This document shows, in pieces, positions 2,409 through 15,254 of a DNA stretch of 42,740 bases. The notes beneath the pieces are model-generated. The model did no database searches, was not told the origin of the DNA, and was given only the letters and a program-made list of their open reading frames with translations. The translations under genes and the position numbers were made by a program. Numbering within the stretch: the first letter of the stretch is position 1; each line of letters opens with the position of its first letter. Source of the stretch: a virus (Duplodnaviria > Heunggongvirae > Uroviricota > Caudoviricetes); the IMG/VR virus record IMGVR_UViG_2878930440_000003; one strand, given 5' to 3'.

Positions 2409-4094
2409 TTATGCAGCAACGTCCATGCCGGCATACAAGTTCCACTTAGTACCATCGTACTCATAAACCTTACCCTTCTCGTAGGTTGTCTCATCCTTGG
2501 TGTAATCCTCTGTTAAAGCCACCTTCATGCCCTTAGCAGCAGTATCAGGGAGAGTCTTCAGAGATATGATGCTGTTCACGATGCCAGTAACACCAAGGTT
2601 AGTGATGAATGCCTCTGGACCAACCAAGATAGAGTTGTAGCCACGAAGAGCAATACAATCTGCCTCAATGTGCATGTATCGCTTAGCCTCACGTGGATCG
2701 TAGCCATCCTTGCTCATGTCATTGGTCTTATCCTTACCCTTCTCCTTCACGTAGTGACGAGCACCCTTCAAGTCCATACCAACCATGCAGTCTTCCATGT
2801 GCATCATGTCAAGAGTCTGATCCCAAACGAAATCAATAGTACCATAGTTGTCAACGTAGCGAGAGAAAGTAATGTCGATTTCCTTGTGAGTAGAAAGAAC
2901 CTCTGTGCGACCCTTTGGAATCTCAATGTTCATCAGGCGCTTGATTGCGTTCTTGCCACAGAACATATAGATGTGGTCAGACTCAGAGAAGTCTGTGAAC
3001 ATCAACATACTGATAGCAGTCAAATCCTCGTACTTGTAAACCTCACCGATACCATACTGGTTAGTCAGCTGATTCAAGATACCCTCTGCGAAGTAGGTGT
3101 ACTCATCAGCACCATCATTGGTGGTAGAGTGGATACGAGCCTTGGTGCCCATCCAGTAAGAACGCTCAGCACGCATCTTGTACTTGTTGAGTGCGTCTTC
3201 CTTCATATCCTTCACTGTATGAGGAATTTTCTTCTTCATGGTCTCGAAGTCCTCTGTGAAGACGATAGAGAATGCACGCTTCTGGAGATATACATCAGCA
3301 GAACGAGGCTGGTAGTTCTCAGCAGGAACCTTCATCTGAGACTCAGAGAGCGCTGTAGAAGCAGCAAGGATAACAGTACCAGTTGGAATATCAGGGCAAG
3401 TCATGTTCTCCAAGAACTCGCAATCTGCACCCTCCTCATTAGCCTTACCGTTGATAGCCTGCAGGGTTACCTCAGTACCTGCCTTATTGGCGCTGGTAAC
3501 AAAGAGAACCAAACGACCTTCACGAACTGTAGTAGAGCCACGCTTGTAACCAGCTACGGTAGGAACGATAGCAGTAGAACCCTCGTAGAATGGCTTCAAA
3601 GAGCCTGAGAAGTTGGTTTTGGTAAGCTTGATGGAAGCACCAGTAGCAATAGGCTGCGTAACCTCACCGTCCAAGGTCTCACCACCATAGCGTGCGTGCT
3701 TCTTCTTGTAGCCAGTACAAGGAACTGTTGTGGTAAACTTCTTGACGATAGAAAGGAGAGGTGTATGATATGGGCGGAACTTGGTCTCACCCGTGTCCCA
3801 GTCTTCCTCTTCAAGACCGCCTCGGTCCATCTGTGTAGCAGAAGCCTGCGTACCAGTCAAAGACTGACCAGCAGTTTTACCACCAGGGGCAAGCATGTCG
3901 TTCTTATCCTTATCTACCTGCTCATTGGCAGCTGTCTCTTCGGTTGTTGCAGGCTTAGAACCCGGCTCGTTCAAGTCAGGTTCAACATCATCACCAACAG
4001 CCATTACGCCACCGCCTGTAGCAACTGCAAGAAGCATCAGAATCATCTTAAAGATGAACTGACGATCAGAAAAATAATTAATTGCTTTCTTCAT
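2409..4094 (-). CDS. Major capsid protein (HK97 fold, SU10/DUF5309-like) with N-terminal signal-peptide-like segment
   Basis: Start reassigned to MKKAINY at 4094 (561 aa). Follows the scaffold gene. TKFRPYHTPLLS, YLQKRAFSIVFTE, AERSYWMG and GILNQL patterns resemble this capsid family. Confidence 0.75.
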   Translation of the reverse strand: MKKAINYFSDRQFIFKMILMLLAVATGGGVMAVGDDVEPDLNEPGSKPATTEETAANEQVDKDKNDMLAPGGKTAGQSLTGTQASATQMDRGGLEEEDWDTGETKFRPYHTPLLSIVKKFTTTVPCTGYKKKHARYGGETLDGEVTQPIATGASIKLTKTNFSGSLKPFYEGSTAIVPTVAGYKRGSTTVREGRLVLFVTSANKAGTEVTLQAINGKANEEGADCEFLENMTCPDIPTGTVILAASTALSESQMKVPAENYQPRSADVYLQKRAFSIVFTEDFETMKKKIPHTVKDMKEDALNKYKMRAERSYWMGTKARIHSTTNDGADEYTYFAEGILNQLTNQYGIGEVYKYEDLTAISMLMFTDFSESDHIYMFCGKNAIKRLMNIEIPKGRTEVLSTHKEIDITFSRYVDNYGTIDFVWDQTLDMMHMEDCMVGMDLKGARHYVKEKGKDKTNDMSKDGYDPREAKRYMHIEADCIALRGYNSILVGPEAFITNLGVTGIVNSIISLKTLPDTAAKGMKVALTEDYTKDETTYEKGKVYEYDGTKWNLYAGMDVAA

Positions 4095-4128
4095 TTTATA
4101 CATATATTTATGGATTAATAATCTTGTG

Positions 4129-4920
4129 TTAACCAATATCATCAAAGAAGCTGGATGCTCTCTTCTTAGTTTTCTTCTTAGCTGGTGCGTTTCCTGCACC
4201 CGAACTAGAAAGTGAAGGAGGAATACCCTCGTTTGCGGAAGAGCGAACCTTATTCTGAATTTTTTCGTTTCGGGCTTGCATAGCCGCCTCGTCACGCGCC
4301 GAAGTGATGTCGGAATCGTAGTTGTTGGCATTGTGGAGCATCTTCCAAATATCATCTGAAATATCGCCACTCTCTACCTTGTCGTGAATCTCGTAAATCT
4401 GGGACCACATATCCTGTGCATCATCGGGATAGAGCTTCATCAGGCGTTCAAGCGACTTGCGCATGTTGGCAGTAACCTTCTCGGTAGCCTCGTTCTGTTC
4501 AGCCACGTCCTCGTTGTGCTTGGCGAGAATCTCAGCGAGTTTCTTGCCGCCTTCAGGATCATCAAGCAACGTCTTTACATCAATACCCAAGCGAGCCATC
4601 GCATCAAACGGATTGTCGTCCGGATTTTTCTCCATATCCATCGCCAGAACAGCGAGCCACTTGTGCTTATCGAATACTTTAGACAATGCCTTACCGCTCT
4701 GTTCGTACTGTCCGAGCAAATCAGCATCATCATTCATTGCCGCATAACGAGCTTCCTTGTCTTCGAAGTCGATGTCAGAATGGCGATTAGAGAAGCGCTT
4801 GGAGAAAGCTGTACGATTAGGGCGGTCCTCTACAGGAGCTTCATCTGTAGCAGCCTCAGCAGGTGGAGCCTGTTGTGCGCCACCTTCCTCATTCATCTGT
4901 GCTAATTCTTCTTTTGTCAT
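4129..4920 (-). CDS. Putative capsid scaffolding protein
   Basis: Start MTKEELAQ at 4920. Acidic, helical/coiled-coil sequence with low-complexity termini, directly upstream of the capsid gene. Confidence 0.65.
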   Translation of the reverse strand: MTKEELAQMNEEGGAQQAPPAEAATDEAPVEDRPNRTAFSKRFSNRHSDIDFEDKEARYAAMNDDADLLGQYEQSGKALSKVFDKHKWLAVLAMDMEKNPDDNPFDAMARLGIDVKTLLDDPEGGKKLAEILAKHNEDVAEQNEATEKVTANMRKSLERLMKLYPDDAQDMWSQIYEIHDKVESGDISDDIWKMLHNANNYDSDITSARDEAAMQARNEKIQNKVRSSANEGIPPSLSSSGAGNAPAKKKTKKRASSFFDDIG

Positions 4921-4947
4921 ATCTCTATACTGTTTGAAACTTTTCGG

Positions 4948-5048
4948 CAAAAATGCAAATAATTTGAAGAAGTTTTGCCGTGCTCCAACCTTGCGCTTGG
5001 TGGTTGGTTGGAACACGGCAAAGAAAGCCATGTTTTTGCCTATTTTTG
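4948..5048. promoter_or_regulatory. Bidirectional late promoter with two outward-facing GTTGGA(A/G)CACGGCAAA boxes
   Basis: Box on + at 5007-5022 with TATTTTTG at 5041-5048. Box on - at 4974-4989 with CATTTTTG at 4948-4955. Both have 34-nt start-to-start spacing. Confidence 0.7.
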
Positions 5049-5075
5049 CGCCTATAATTAATAATGTATAAGAAA

Positions 5076-14261: not shown

Positions 14262-14295
14262 TTCTTTCATACGCGCTAATTTATGATAACATGAA

Positions 14296-14328
14296 AAAGG
14301 CGGCTGCTCATCACGAGTGGTCGCCTTT
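14296..14328. terminator. Bidirectional terminator hairpin with ATCAC loop between convergent genes
   Basis: AAAGGCGGCTGCTC-ATCAC-GAGTGGTCGCCTTT with A/T runs on both sides. Confidence 0.75.
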
Positions 14329-14380
14329 AAAATTAGTTATGAAAAACATTTTTAAAAACATGAATCTCTTTATATGTGTG

Positions 14381-14863
14381 TTATCTGATTTTGATATTAT
14401 TTACGCAATACGCTACGATGTAGCCTAGGATAAAGCAGTAAAGATGCAGAAGTCCGTTGACATTCGGCACGGCCATGGTGCAAATAATGAACGGCATCGC
14501 TTTCTTTAATGCCTCTTTCCATCGTCCTGTCTTACCCCACATCAAACCAAAGGAAGAGAATAGGAAACCGGAAAGCCCCATTGTAGGCTGACTAACATAC
14601 ATGGGCAGCAGACTAGCGACAGAGGCAACAGCCAGAGAAGTGACTGGTTTCATATCGTTCTTTATTTGCCAAAGCACCAGAAGGTTTACGGCAAGATGAA
14701 AGCCGTTGACATGGAAGAAGCTATACAGGATATGATTCTGCCATGGACAACCGGGATAGAAACCGACATGCCAAGTACACAGAACGAGGCAGATGATGCT
14801 AAGCACCAGCTTTGTTCGAAAGTTTCTTCTTACGAAGGTCCATTTCTCTGTAATTTTTTCCAT
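14381..14863 (-). CDS. Rhomboid-family intramembrane serine protease (compact)
   Basis: HVNGFHLAVN (HxxxxHxxxN), catalytic GLSG and catalytic His in NGLLHLYCFILG; several TM segments. Probable start MEKITEK at 14863 (track 14938). Confidence 0.85.
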   Translation of the reverse strand: MEKITEKWTFVRRNFRTKLVLSIICLVLCTWHVGFYPGCPWQNHILYSFFHVNGFHLAVNLLVLWQIKNDMKPVTSLAVASVASLLPMYVSQPTMGLSGFLFSSFGLMWGKTGRWKEALKKAMPFIICTMAVPNVNGLLHLYCFILGYIVAYCVNNIKIR

Positions 14864-15254
14864 ACTTCTTATAGTAAGCGAAAATGAATTTGAGATTACT
14901 TGGCTGGATAAAGAACTCGGGGGCAGGCTCAGAAACAAGGAACTGGCAGATAAACCATAAAGATTTGCCCACGAACTCCTTGCGCTGCGTCATTTCCTTC
15001 ATCCTATTGAACAGCGTATAGTACAACTTCTGCCGAATCGGCTTCATGCTATCCACCTTTGAGAAATCGCCGACTGCCATTCTGCGGAGTATATCCCAAG
15101 CTCTTTTGGGAGAAACATAGTATCTGGGAGCAGGAGAATGGACCACCTTTTCCCAAGCCTCCTGTTGGAAATGGCAATTAGGAGCTATCTCCCGATACGC
15201 CTTCATCAGATCATCCCTCTGTCTGTCAATCAATTCGTAATTTGCTCTTGCCAT
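14799..15254 (-). CDS. Conserved phage hypothetical protein, possibly DNA-binding regulator
   Basis: 151 aa, basic, with two PAP(R/E)(Y/F)(Y/F) motifs; overlaps the rhomboid start. Confidence 0.7.
   Translation of the reverse strand: MARANYELIDRQRDDLMKAYREIAPNCHFQQEAWEKVVHSPAPRYYVSPKRAWDILRRMAVGDFSKVDSMKPIRQKLYYTLFNRMKEMTQRKEFVGKSLWFICQFLVSEPAPEFFIQPSNLKFIFAYYKKYGKNYREMDLRKKKLSNKAGA

What the first reader, a model, noticed from the sequence alone, without database searches (positions are those of the whole stretch)
2409..15254. Candidate new system: membrane-tethered capsid precursor matured by a phage rhomboid
Seen: (i) a capsid protein with a TM-like leader ending in LLAVATGGGVMA; (ii) no recognizable prohead protease (ClpP/S21/S49-type) among the head genes in this window; (iii) an intact rhomboid at the end of the morphogenesis block. 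The Ala/Gly-rich helix-breaking end of the leader is the type of site rhomboids prefer. Inference: procapsid assembly is nucleated on the inner membrane and released by intramembrane proteolysis, which would be an unusual maturation route for a tailed phage. Caveats: predicted topology puts the capsid domain outside, host signal peptidase could cut at VMA instead, and the rhomboid promoter looks like a lysogeny promoter rather than a late promoter.
Basis: inference. Interest (0 to 1): 0.85.

Follow-up and report, generated by a model that had tools for sequence, protein, structure and literature searches.

The report
Phage mini-rhomboid linked to capsid leader
A temperate gut Bacteroides phage makes its main shell protein with a secretion-signal-like greasy leader and also carries a tiny, apparently active membrane-embedded (rhomboid) protease. 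Across a large family of related phages the two features mostly occur together, which points to an undescribed and still untested way of processing a virus coat protein.

Summary
All three observations hold.

- **Leader.** The major capsid protein (2409-4094, minus strand) starts with a translated 32-residue signal-like leader. It is conserved far beyond this phage: 93 of 113 full-length cluster representatives of the capsid family carry one.
- **No head protease.** No S78, ClpP or S49 head protease is found in five complete related genomes.
- **Rhomboid.** The 160-residue ORF at 14381-14863 (minus strand) folds as a GlpG-type rhomboid. Its His-x4-His-x3-Asn motif and Ser/His dyad are invariant.

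**New here.**
- Leader and rhomboid co-occur in four deep lineages whose capsid proteins are only about 23% identical.
- A large leaderless clade keeps the neighbouring p151 gene but has no rhomboid.
- Leaderless capsid proteins start exactly at the conserved Ala-Met-Ala junction that ends the leader.
- A second, independent leaderless lineage also lacks the rhomboid.

**The link is not obligatory.**
- A complete 59-kb genome keeps the leader without any rhomboid.
- One phage keeps an intact rhomboid with a leaderless capsid protein.
- Predicted topology would place the capsid domain outside the cell membrane.
- The junction also fits host signal peptidase I.

**Verdict.** The rhomboid probably acts on the capsid leader (about 0.45). 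Membrane-nucleated assembly is not shown. This scan noted the same pairing before on other DNA (e1-1865385, e1-5355288). I found no paper describing it.

The parts
2409..4094 (-). Major capsid protein precursor, 561 aa, SU10/HK97 type. An alternative in-frame ATG lies at 4103.
   Evidence: Pfam PF17236 at 38.4 bits, above the cut-off. There are 915 homologues, and 403 cluster representatives match the family profile.
3999..4094 (-). Leader, residues 1-32. It has a basic n-region with a conserved aromatic pattern, a hydrophobic core MILMLLAVA, the helix-breaker TGGG, and the junction V-M-A.
   Evidence: Conserved at the protein level. Leaderless homologues start at the junction Met-Ala. The start-codon context favours the leader ATG.
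3795..3998 (-). Acidic, low-complexity linker between the leader and the capsid fold, roughly residues 33-100. It contains the conserved LTGTQASATQ motif.
   Evidence: Alignments A1 and A9. The Pfam match to the capsid fold begins near residue 91.
4129..4920 (-). Scaffold-like protein directly upstream of the capsid gene. The likely start is the Met of MTKEELAQ.
   Evidence: phrog_22323 at E 1.3e-17. The position upstream of the capsid gene is conserved in all lineages.
5064..7094 (+). Portal protein, P22-like.
   Evidence: Pfam P22_portal at E 6e-23 and phrog_156 at E 1e-52.
9454..11571 (+). Large terminase-like protein.
   Evidence: phrog_24361 terminase at E 5e-8. Homologues in the cultured phages carry Terminase structure-match notes.
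14381..14863 (-). Minimal six-helix rhomboid protease, 160 aa. The HxxxxHxxxN motif is at residues 51-60. The putative catalytic Ser98 is encoded at 14570-14572 and His140 at 14444-14446.
   Evidence: Invariant catalytic residues. AlphaFold2 pLDDT 89. The 34 best PDB matches are all GlpG. Relatives pass the Pfam Rhomboid cut-off.
14799..15254 (-). p151, a conserved soluble protein with two PAPxFY repeats. Its 3' end overlaps the rhomboid start by 65 nt. It is a candidate DNA-binding or small-terminase-like protein.
   Evidence: phrog_27246. It is found next to the scaffold-capsid pair in phages with and without a rhomboid. AlphaFold2 pLDDT is 94, with only weak helix-turn-helix-like fold matches.
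4974..5022 (.). Two divergent copies of the 16-bp box GTTGGARCACGGCAAA, in front of the scaffold-capsid operon and the portal operon. A third copy at 16340-16355 precedes the lysis genes.
   Evidence: Exactly three matches in the window, and none upstream of p151-rhomboid.

Best explanation
The capsid protein is made as a precursor with a removable N-terminal leader that looks like a signal anchor. The leader ends at a conserved junction of hydrophobic residue, Ala, Met, Ala. The phage's own 160-residue rhomboid acts on this leader in the cytoplasmic membrane. Most likely it cuts the leader off at or near the junction. Alternatively it clears the leader stub after another enzyme has cut. Either way the shell-forming protein would begin where leaderless relatives begin.

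Shown:
- The leader is translated and under selection.
- The rhomboid has the GlpG fold and keeps every catalytic residue.
- The two genes are kept together across deep lineages.
- The rhomboid is absent from the lineages that lack the leader, with the single exception of L167 (see the Against line).
- Leaderless proteins start exactly at the junction.
- No conventional head protease is present.

Inferred:
- That the leader enters the membrane.
- That it is cleaved at all.
- That the rhomboid, rather than a host enzyme, does the cutting.
- How a capsid domain that must stay in the cytoplasm is compatible with an N-in signal-like leader.
For: Leader and rhomboid co-occur in:
- 66 of the 67 window-clade loci in which either gene of the p151-rhomboid pair was detected; the other 13 loci showed neither;
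- 3 of 3 cultured Bacteroides phages, with portal 31-36% and capsid about 23% identical to the window's;
- 23 of 23 loci of the A5 group and 8 of 8 loci of the A7 group.

The leaderless clade comprises 73 loci in 23 clusters (plus L167, which keeps a rhomboid; see the Against line). It keeps p151 at the same place but has no rhomboid. Two complete leaderless genomes are also negative.

A second leaderless protein, P0237, is nested inside a leader-plus-rhomboid group. In its contig p151 abuts TerL with no rhomboid between them.

In three lineages the gene order is p151, rhomboid, TerL, portal, with overlapping genes.

Leaderless proteins begin at the near-invariant junction Met-Ala. Around the junction, the first residue on the leader side of the proposed cut (P1) is small (Ala 88%, Thr 11%), and the fourth (P4) is mostly hydrophobic.

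Catalytic Ser and His are retained in all lineages examined. No S78, ClpP or S49 protease is present.
Against: - A clade of four lineages (G008, L092, P0258, P0275) keeps a conserved leader but has p151 directly next to TerL. G008, a complete 59-kb genome with terminal repeats, has no rhomboid anywhere. The leader therefore works without a phage rhomboid.
- L167 has an intact rhomboid and p151 but a leaderless capsid protein.
- On the capsid tree the main loss is essentially one event, so the counts are not independent.
- By the positive-inside rule the leader should insert N-in/C-out. That orientation is opposite to classical rhomboid substrates and would export the capsid domain.
- The junction is a textbook signal peptidase I site, with small residues at -3 and -1 and Gly helix-breakers at -4 to -6. 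Position P2' (the second residue after the cut) is not hydrophobic, as the rhomboid recognition motif would prefer.
- In this window p151-rhomboid lacks the box shared by the head and lysis operons.
- Hosts have their own rhomboid.
Confidence: 0.45

Rival explanations
1. Host enzymes alone handle the leader (signal peptidase I or the host's own rhomboid), or it is never cleaved. The phage rhomboid has a different substrate, such as a lysis protein, another phage membrane protein or a host envelope protein. On this reading the co-occurrence reflects shared descent within one phage lineage.
For: - The junction matches the -3/-1 rule, with Ala at -3 in 55% and Ala at -1 in 88%.
- The leader persists without a rhomboid in G008 and its relatives.
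- A rhomboid persists without a leader in L167.
- The window encodes other membrane proteins nearby: a two-helix holin-like protein and a spanin-like protein at 16408-17735.
- Host-like genomes encode a cellular rhomboid.
- p151-rhomboid has a host-type promoter without the shared 16-bp box.
Against: - The rhomboid is missing from all but one (L167) of the sampled lineages that lack the leader, including an independent second case, while its neighbour p151 stays.
- In most lineages the rhomboid sits between p151 and TerL, not in the lysis or lysogeny modules.
- The Met just before the junction's final Ala (position -2) and the n-region pattern are conserved, which generic signal peptides are not.
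- Gln is not among the common residues after the junction. From my own recollection, signal peptidase I substrates of Bacteroidota often carry Gln there.
Confidence: 0.3
2. The gene has two starts. Shells are built from a short form initiated at the junction Met, and the long leader-bearing form is a minor membrane isoform with a regulatory or targeting role. The rhomboid may turn that long form over.
For: - Met is the commonest residue at the junction, present in about 75% of leaders.
- Leaderless relatives use exactly this Met as their start.
- Gene callers sometimes choose it, as for P0260.
Against: - The 18 nt upstream of the junction ATG are 62% G+C with 14% A, whereas the leader ATG has 80% A+T upstream, the usual context of Bacteroidota starts.
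- In about a quarter of leaders the Met is replaced by Leu, Ile or Phe.
- The first ATG, with the better context, should capture most ribosomes.
Confidence: 0.12
3. The leader never enters the membrane. It is an internal assembly propeptide, like a small delta domain, that is buried in the procapsid or bound by the scaffold. The rhomboid is unrelated to it.
For: - Capsid assembly and DNA packaging are cytoplasmic (established knowledge).
- The hydrophobic core is short, about 14-17 residues, and Gly/Ala-rich.
- Earlier notes of this scan report hydrophobic leaders on capsid or cement proteins in other phage groups.
Against: - The basic, hydrophobic, helix-breaker, small-x-small layout is that of an export signal.
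- No soluble head protease is present to remove such a propeptide.
- This reading does not explain the phyletic link to a membrane protease.
Confidence: 0.1

Closest known systems
Rhomboid proteases GlpG (E. coli, H. influenzae) and AarA of Providencia stuartii, MEROPS S54, Pfam PF01694
   Same: The six-helix fold is shared (Foldseek probability 1.00, TM about 0.6). The HxxxxHxxxN motif, the GxS motif on helix 4 and the His on helix 6 are all present. The charge distribution indicates the same N-in topology. From my own knowledge, AarA removes a short N-terminal extension from TatA, which is the closest functional analogy.
   Different: At 160 residues it has no cytoplasmic domain and almost no L1 loop. 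It is encoded by a phage, inside or beside the packaging genes. The proposed substrate is predicted N-in rather than N-out and carries a 500-residue cytoplasmic-type domain. Sequence similarity to GlpG is undetectable by phmmer.
Capsid precursor processing by prohead proteases (HK97 gp4 with the delta domain, T4 gp21)
   Same: An N-terminal extension of an HK97-type capsid protein that leaderless relatives lack, ending at a conserved junction.
   Different: No S78, ClpP or S49 protease is present, and a separate scaffold protein exists. The extension is a hydrophobic signal-like leader, not a helical scaffolding domain. The candidate protease is an integral membrane enzyme that cannot be inside a procapsid.
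Staphylococcal phage 80alpha capsid and scaffold leaders, cut by the host protease Prp (recalled from memory and named in earlier scan notes)
   Same: A short N-terminal leader on the capsid protein is removed by an enzyme that is not a classical prohead protease.
   Different: The 80alpha leader is a soluble L27-like peptide cut by a host cytoplasmic cysteine protease. Here the leader is hydrophobic and the candidate enzyme is phage-encoded and intramembrane.
Sec signal peptides cleaved by signal peptidase I, and signal-anchor-release (SAR) domains of phage endolysins
   Same: The n-h-c layout is present, with small residues at -3 and -1 and Gly/Ala-rich weak hydrophobicity.
   Different: The cargo is a capsid protein that must assemble in the cytoplasm. 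The n-region and the -2 Met are conserved across very distant relatives. There is no Gln enrichment after the site.
Membrane-associated prohead initiation in phage T4 (portal gp20 with gp40), from my own knowledge
   Same: Head assembly starts at the inner face of the cytoplasmic membrane and the prohead is later released.
   Different: In T4 the portal, not the capsid protein, is tethered, and release does not involve an intramembrane protease.

Membership tests
Rhomboid intramembrane serine protease (PF01694 / MEROPS S54) | Six-transmembrane-helix rhomboid core fold | tested here: met
   The AlphaFold2 model has pLDDT 89.3 and pTM 0.83. The 34 best Foldseek PDB matches are all GlpG, with probability 1.00 and TM 0.52-0.63.
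Rhomboid intramembrane serine protease (PF01694 / MEROPS S54) | Catalytic Ser (GxS motif, helix 4) and His (helix 6), plus the HxxxxHxxxN motif of helix 2 | tested here: met
   H51, N53, H56, N60, G96, S98, N136, G137 and H140 are invariant in 36 homologues. Ser and His are kept in all lineages aligned; one group has GxSN instead of GxSG.
Rhomboid intramembrane serine protease (PF01694 / MEROPS S54) | Score above Pfam's gathering cut-off | tested here: inconclusive
   The window's protein scores 18 bits against a cut-off of 22.6. A near-identical relative reaches 22.7 bits when neighbouring matches in the frame are included, and a distant relative reaches 43.3 bits. Several homologues carry precomputed PF01694 hits.
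Rhomboid intramembrane serine protease (PF01694 / MEROPS S54) | Proteolytic activity on a transmembrane substrate | not testable with these tools
   This needs a biochemical assay.
HK97-fold major capsid protein, SU10 type (PF17236) | Profile match above the cut-off, and position next to scaffold, portal and terminase genes | tested here: met
   38.4 bits against a cut-off of 24.1. The scaffold-capsid pair and the portal and TerL genes are conserved in all lineages.
Signal peptidase I-cleaved Sec signal peptide | n-h-c layout with small residues at -3 and -1 | tested here: met
   Junction profile over 93 leaders: -1 is Ala 88% or Thr 11%; -3 is Ala 55% or another small or aliphatic residue; Gly or Asp occupy -4 to -6. 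No dedicated signal-peptide predictor was available.
Signal peptidase I-cleaved Sec signal peptide | Exported cargo (in Bacteroidota often with Gln at +1, from my own recollection) | tested here: not met
   The cargo is a capsid protein with cytoplasmic partners (scaffold, portal, terminase). After the junction the common residues are Ala, Val, Glu and Asp, and Gln is not among the top six.
Canonical rhomboid substrate (TatA/Spitz-type recognition motif) | Small P1, and large hydrophobic P4 and P2' | tested here: inconclusive
   For a cut after Met-Ala, P1 is small (met). P4 is Phe, Val, Leu or Ile in about 65% (partly met). P2' is Ala, Asp, Thr or Gly (not met).
Canonical rhomboid substrate (TatA/Spitz-type recognition motif) | N-out (type I or III) membrane orientation | tested here: not met
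   The n-region is basic and the flank after the core is acidic. By the positive-inside rule this predicts N-in/C-out. This is a prediction from sequence only.
Prohead protease-dependent capsid maturation (S78, S14/ClpP, S49, S77) | A head protease gene in the genome | tested here: not met
   S78, ClpP and S49 give no match in five complete genomes while controls match. The S77 search had no positive control and is uninformative.

The most novel reading that the evidence does not exclude
A large family of gut Bacteroidales phages sends its major capsid protein to the cytoplasmic membrane through a cleavable leader. A phage-encoded mini-rhomboid then releases or matures it. This would be a route of capsid precursor processing by intramembrane proteolysis, unknown for any tailed phage, and the first assigned substrate for a viral rhomboid.
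Probability: 0.3. Interest if true: 0.9.

Novelty: new variant of a known kind. Interest (0 to 1): 0.72.

Why it matters
Capsid proteins of tailed phages are regarded as soluble cytoplasmic proteins. When they mature by cleavage, a protease packaged inside the prohead does it.

Here a signal-like leader sits on the capsid protein of most members of a large, prevalent family of human-gut phages. It is genetically tied to a membrane-embedded protease. If the link is functional, it defines a new maturation or quality-control step. It would also give bacterial-type rhomboids a rare, clear natural substrate, and it raises the question of how a shell protein passes by the membrane without being exported.

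Three relatives are in culture with their Bacteroides hosts (PMC12694917), so the question can be tested directly.

Practically, gene callers mis-start both genes. This hides the rhomboid and sometimes the leader in databases.

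Tried and rejected
- **Truncated rhomboids.** The 90-100-residue database entries looked like evidence of decay. The DNA shows intact 161-codon ORFs whose first part overlaps p151, so these are gene-calling artefacts.
- **Leader as a mis-called start or non-coding region.** Rejected, because the leader is conserved at the protein level and its ATG has the better start context.
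- **Some 'leaderless' representatives are artefacts.** P0260 has a leader upstream of the called start. Three window-clade loci were flagged leaderless only because the ORF had been extended upstream.
- **PDB sequence searches.** The capsid protein gave only a marginal hit, and the rhomboid gave no rhomboid hit.
- **p151 function.** Foldseek against the PDB found nothing. The wide structural search gave only weak helix-turn-helix-like matches with Z of 6.6 or less, including one small terminase at Z 4.3. The Atlas search found only viral hypothetical proteins. Its role stays open.
- **Further independent leaderless lineages.** The contigs of P0358, P0342 and P0360 are only 3-4 kb, and P0283 is a lone prophage remnant, so none could be scored for the rhomboid.
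- **Alignment A6.** It had no stretch conserved enough to search with and was replaced by A7.
- **Literature.** Searches found no paper linking a phage rhomboid to a capsid leader. The paper describing the cultured relatives does not mention the rhomboid.
- **Whole genome.** No assembly is held for this window, so complete relatives were used instead.

Full report
**What is there**

The region is the head, packaging and lysis part of a temperate phage of gut Bacteroidales. Complete near-identical relatives are about 75.5 kb. The genes are as follows.

| Coordinates (strand) | Gene | Evidence |
|---|---|---|
| 4129-4920 (-) | scaffold-like protein | phrog_22323 |
| 2409-4094 (-) | major capsid protein | Pfam SU10_MCP, 38.4 bits, cut-off 24.1 |
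| 5064-7094 (+) | P22-like portal | |
| 9454-11571 (+) | large terminase-like protein | |
| 11604-14261 (+) | 885-residue protein, unknown role | phrog_32516 |
| 14799-15254 (-) | p151 | phrog_27246 |
| 14381-14863 (-) | 160-residue rhomboid | |
| 16408-17735 (+) | lysis cassette: holin-like, amidase, spanin-like | |

Four small ORFs lie between the portal and the terminase. The start of the rhomboid gene overlaps the end of p151 by 65 nt.

**The leader is real**

The scaffold gene stops at 4129. The capsid frame has ATGs at 4103 and 4094 in an A/T-rich context. The encoded leader, MKKAINYFSDRQFIFKMILMLLAVATGGGVMA, is kept with conservative substitutions in homologues down to 54% identity.

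It is also present in three cultured Bacteroides phages, BKO1-TP3, BS-TP4 and BF1-TP2. Their portals are 31-36% identical to the window's and their capsid proteins about 23%.

An exhaustive profile search found 403 cluster representatives of this capsid family. Of the 113 full-length proteins among the best 150, 93 carry such a leader. At least one of the rest, P0260, is only a mis-called start.

The leaders share four features:
- a basic n-region with a conserved aromatic pattern;
- a hydrophobic core of 12-17 residues;
- Gly or Asp helix-breakers;
- a junction of hydrophobic residue, Ala, Met, Ala. The final residue is Ala in 88% and Thr in 11%. Met was the anchor used to align the junctions and was found in about 75% of leaders; most of the others have Leu, Ile or Phe at that place.

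An acidic, low-complexity linker follows the junction.

Upstream of the leader ATG the sequence is 80% A+T. Upstream of the junction ATG it is 62% G+C. The long form should therefore be the main product.

**The rhomboid is real and looks active**

The window's protein falls below Pfam's cut-off, at 18 against 22.6 bits, and has no detectable sequence similarity to solved rhomboids. Three other lines of evidence support the assignment.
- The 36 aligned homologues keep H51, N53, H56, N60, G96, S98, N136, G137 and H140 invariant.
- The AlphaFold2 model is confident, with pLDDT 89, and its 34 best PDB matches are all GlpG.
- More distant phage relatives pass the Pfam cut-off.

The charged loops place the N-terminus and the loops after helices 2 and 4 in the cytoplasm. 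The active site should therefore face the periplasm, as in GlpG. This is an inference from the sequence and the positive-inside rule.

Database entries of 90-100 residues are gene-calling artefacts. The full ORF is intact.

**No conventional head protease**

S78, ClpP and S49 profiles find nothing in three complete near-identical genomes or in two complete distant relatives, while control genomes match. The S77 search is uninformative because it had no positive control. BS-TP4's structure-aided annotation lists no other protease. This absence is normal for P22- and SU10-like phages that have a separate scaffold protein, so on its own it says little.

**The phyletic test**

| Group | Capsid leader | Rhomboid |
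|---|---|---|
| Window clade (portal at least 82% identical) | yes | 66 of the 67 loci where rhomboid or p151 was detected have both; 13 further loci showed neither |
| Three cultured phages | yes | 3 of 3; gene order p151, rhomboid, TerL, portal, divergent from scaffold-capsid |
| A5 group | yes | 23 of 23 loci |
| A7 group | yes | 8 of 8 loci |
| Large leaderless clade (73 loci in 23 clusters, plus L167 below) | no | none; p151 kept at the same place; two complete genomes negative |
| P0237 / L270 | no | none on its 10.8-kb contig; p151 abuts TerL |
| G008, L092, P0258, P0275 | yes | none found; in three of the four p151 abuts TerL; only G008 is a complete genome |
| L167 | no | intact rhomboid and p151 |

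In the A5 and A7 groups the rhomboid lies 1.3-1.9 kb from the capsid gene, next to p151.

P0237 is nested with good support inside a leader-plus-rhomboid group. It is therefore a second, independent case in which both features are absent.

Leaderless proteins begin exactly at the junction Met-Ala column. This marks the junction as the boundary of a detachable module.

**Discordant cases**

The clade sister to the leaderless clade (G008, L092, P0258, P0275) keeps a well-conserved leader. G008 is a complete 59-kb genome with terminal repeats. It has no rhomboid by three tests: the family profile, Pfam, and a motif and transmembrane-helix scan. On this branch the rhomboid was therefore lost first, and the leader persisted under selection.

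L167 belongs to the leaderless clade by its capsid, scaffold, portal and p151 genes. It nevertheless has an intact rhomboid at the canonical place, and no other leader-bearing protein is visible in its locus.

The link is thus strong but not obligatory. Most of the counts trace back to one ancestral event.

**How it most likely works**

I favour, at about 0.45, that the rhomboid acts on the capsid leader. It would either cut the precursor at the junction or remove the leader stub.

The main rival, at about 0.3, is that host signal peptidase I or a host rhomboid (hosts have one) handles the leader, and the phage enzyme has another target.

Two further readings are less likely. A two-start gene is disfavoured by the start contexts and by the Met-to-Leu/Ile replacements. 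An internal propeptide that never enters the membrane does not explain the link to a membrane protease.

It also faces a topological problem: the basic n-region and acidic flank predict N-in/C-out, which would export the capsid domain and is the wrong polarity for classical rhomboid substrates.

In this window p151-rhomboid has a host-type TAnnTTTG promoter. It lacks the 16-bp box found before the scaffold-capsid, portal and lysis operons. In the cultured relatives, however, the rhomboid lies in line with TerL and the portal.

**Novelty**

GenBank records of the cultured phages already label the gene as a rhomboid. The paper describing those phages does not discuss it, and I found no publication linking it to the capsid leader.

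Earlier reports of this scan reached the same pairing on other DNA.
- the lineage with a leader but no rhomboid, including a complete genome;
- the case of a rhomboid without a leader;
- a second independent case in which both are absent;
- the junction-equals-start observation;
- the start-context test.

Noticed in passing
window 2409-4094 and 11604-14261; loci L001-L080: Phages whose portal and terminase are 96-100% identical to the window's carry capsid alleles only 51-63% identical, alongside others at 76% or 97-99%. Alleles of the 885-residue protein range from 45% to 98%. This suggests cassette-like exchange of the shell protein and of one large structural protein within one phage species.
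   Followed up: partly
window 14799-15254 (minus strand): p151 is a soluble protein with two PAPxFY repeats. It is present next to the scaffold-capsid pair in nearly all relatives, with or without a rhomboid, and where a rhomboid exists their genes overlap by 40-65 nt. The AlphaFold2 model is confident (pLDDT 94) but has only weak helix-turn-helix-like matches. It may be the small terminase.
   Followed up: partly
window 4974-4989 (-), 5007-5022 (+), 16340-16355 (+): The 16-bp box GTTGGARCACGGCAAA occurs exactly three times, in front of the scaffold-capsid, portal and lysis operons. Chance expectation is 0.47 matches. It is probably the site of a phage late activator.
   Followed up: partly
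L087:9818-10303; L269:1574-3214: Public gene calls systematically start the rhomboid at an internal Met, giving 90-100-residue 'proteins'. They sometimes start the capsid gene at the junction Met. This hides both features in protein databases.
   Followed up: yes
L085:1511-17686 (Bacteroides phage BS-TP4) and the equivalent gene in BKO1-TP3: A single ORF of about 5,400 codons lies directly upstream of the portal gene. It is annotated as hypothetical in one phage and as DarB-like antirestriction in the other.
   Followed up: no
window 17295-17735 (+): The ORF after the amidase has an N-terminal lipoprotein-like segment ending in Cys and a C-terminal transmembrane helix. It resembles a unimolecular spanin.
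   Followed up: no
L258 (prophage at the end of an 89-kb contig): A relative with a leader-bearing capsid protein but no rhomboid sits as a prophage next to the host's ATP synthase genes, bounded by a Peptidase_S24 repressor-like gene.
   Followed up: no
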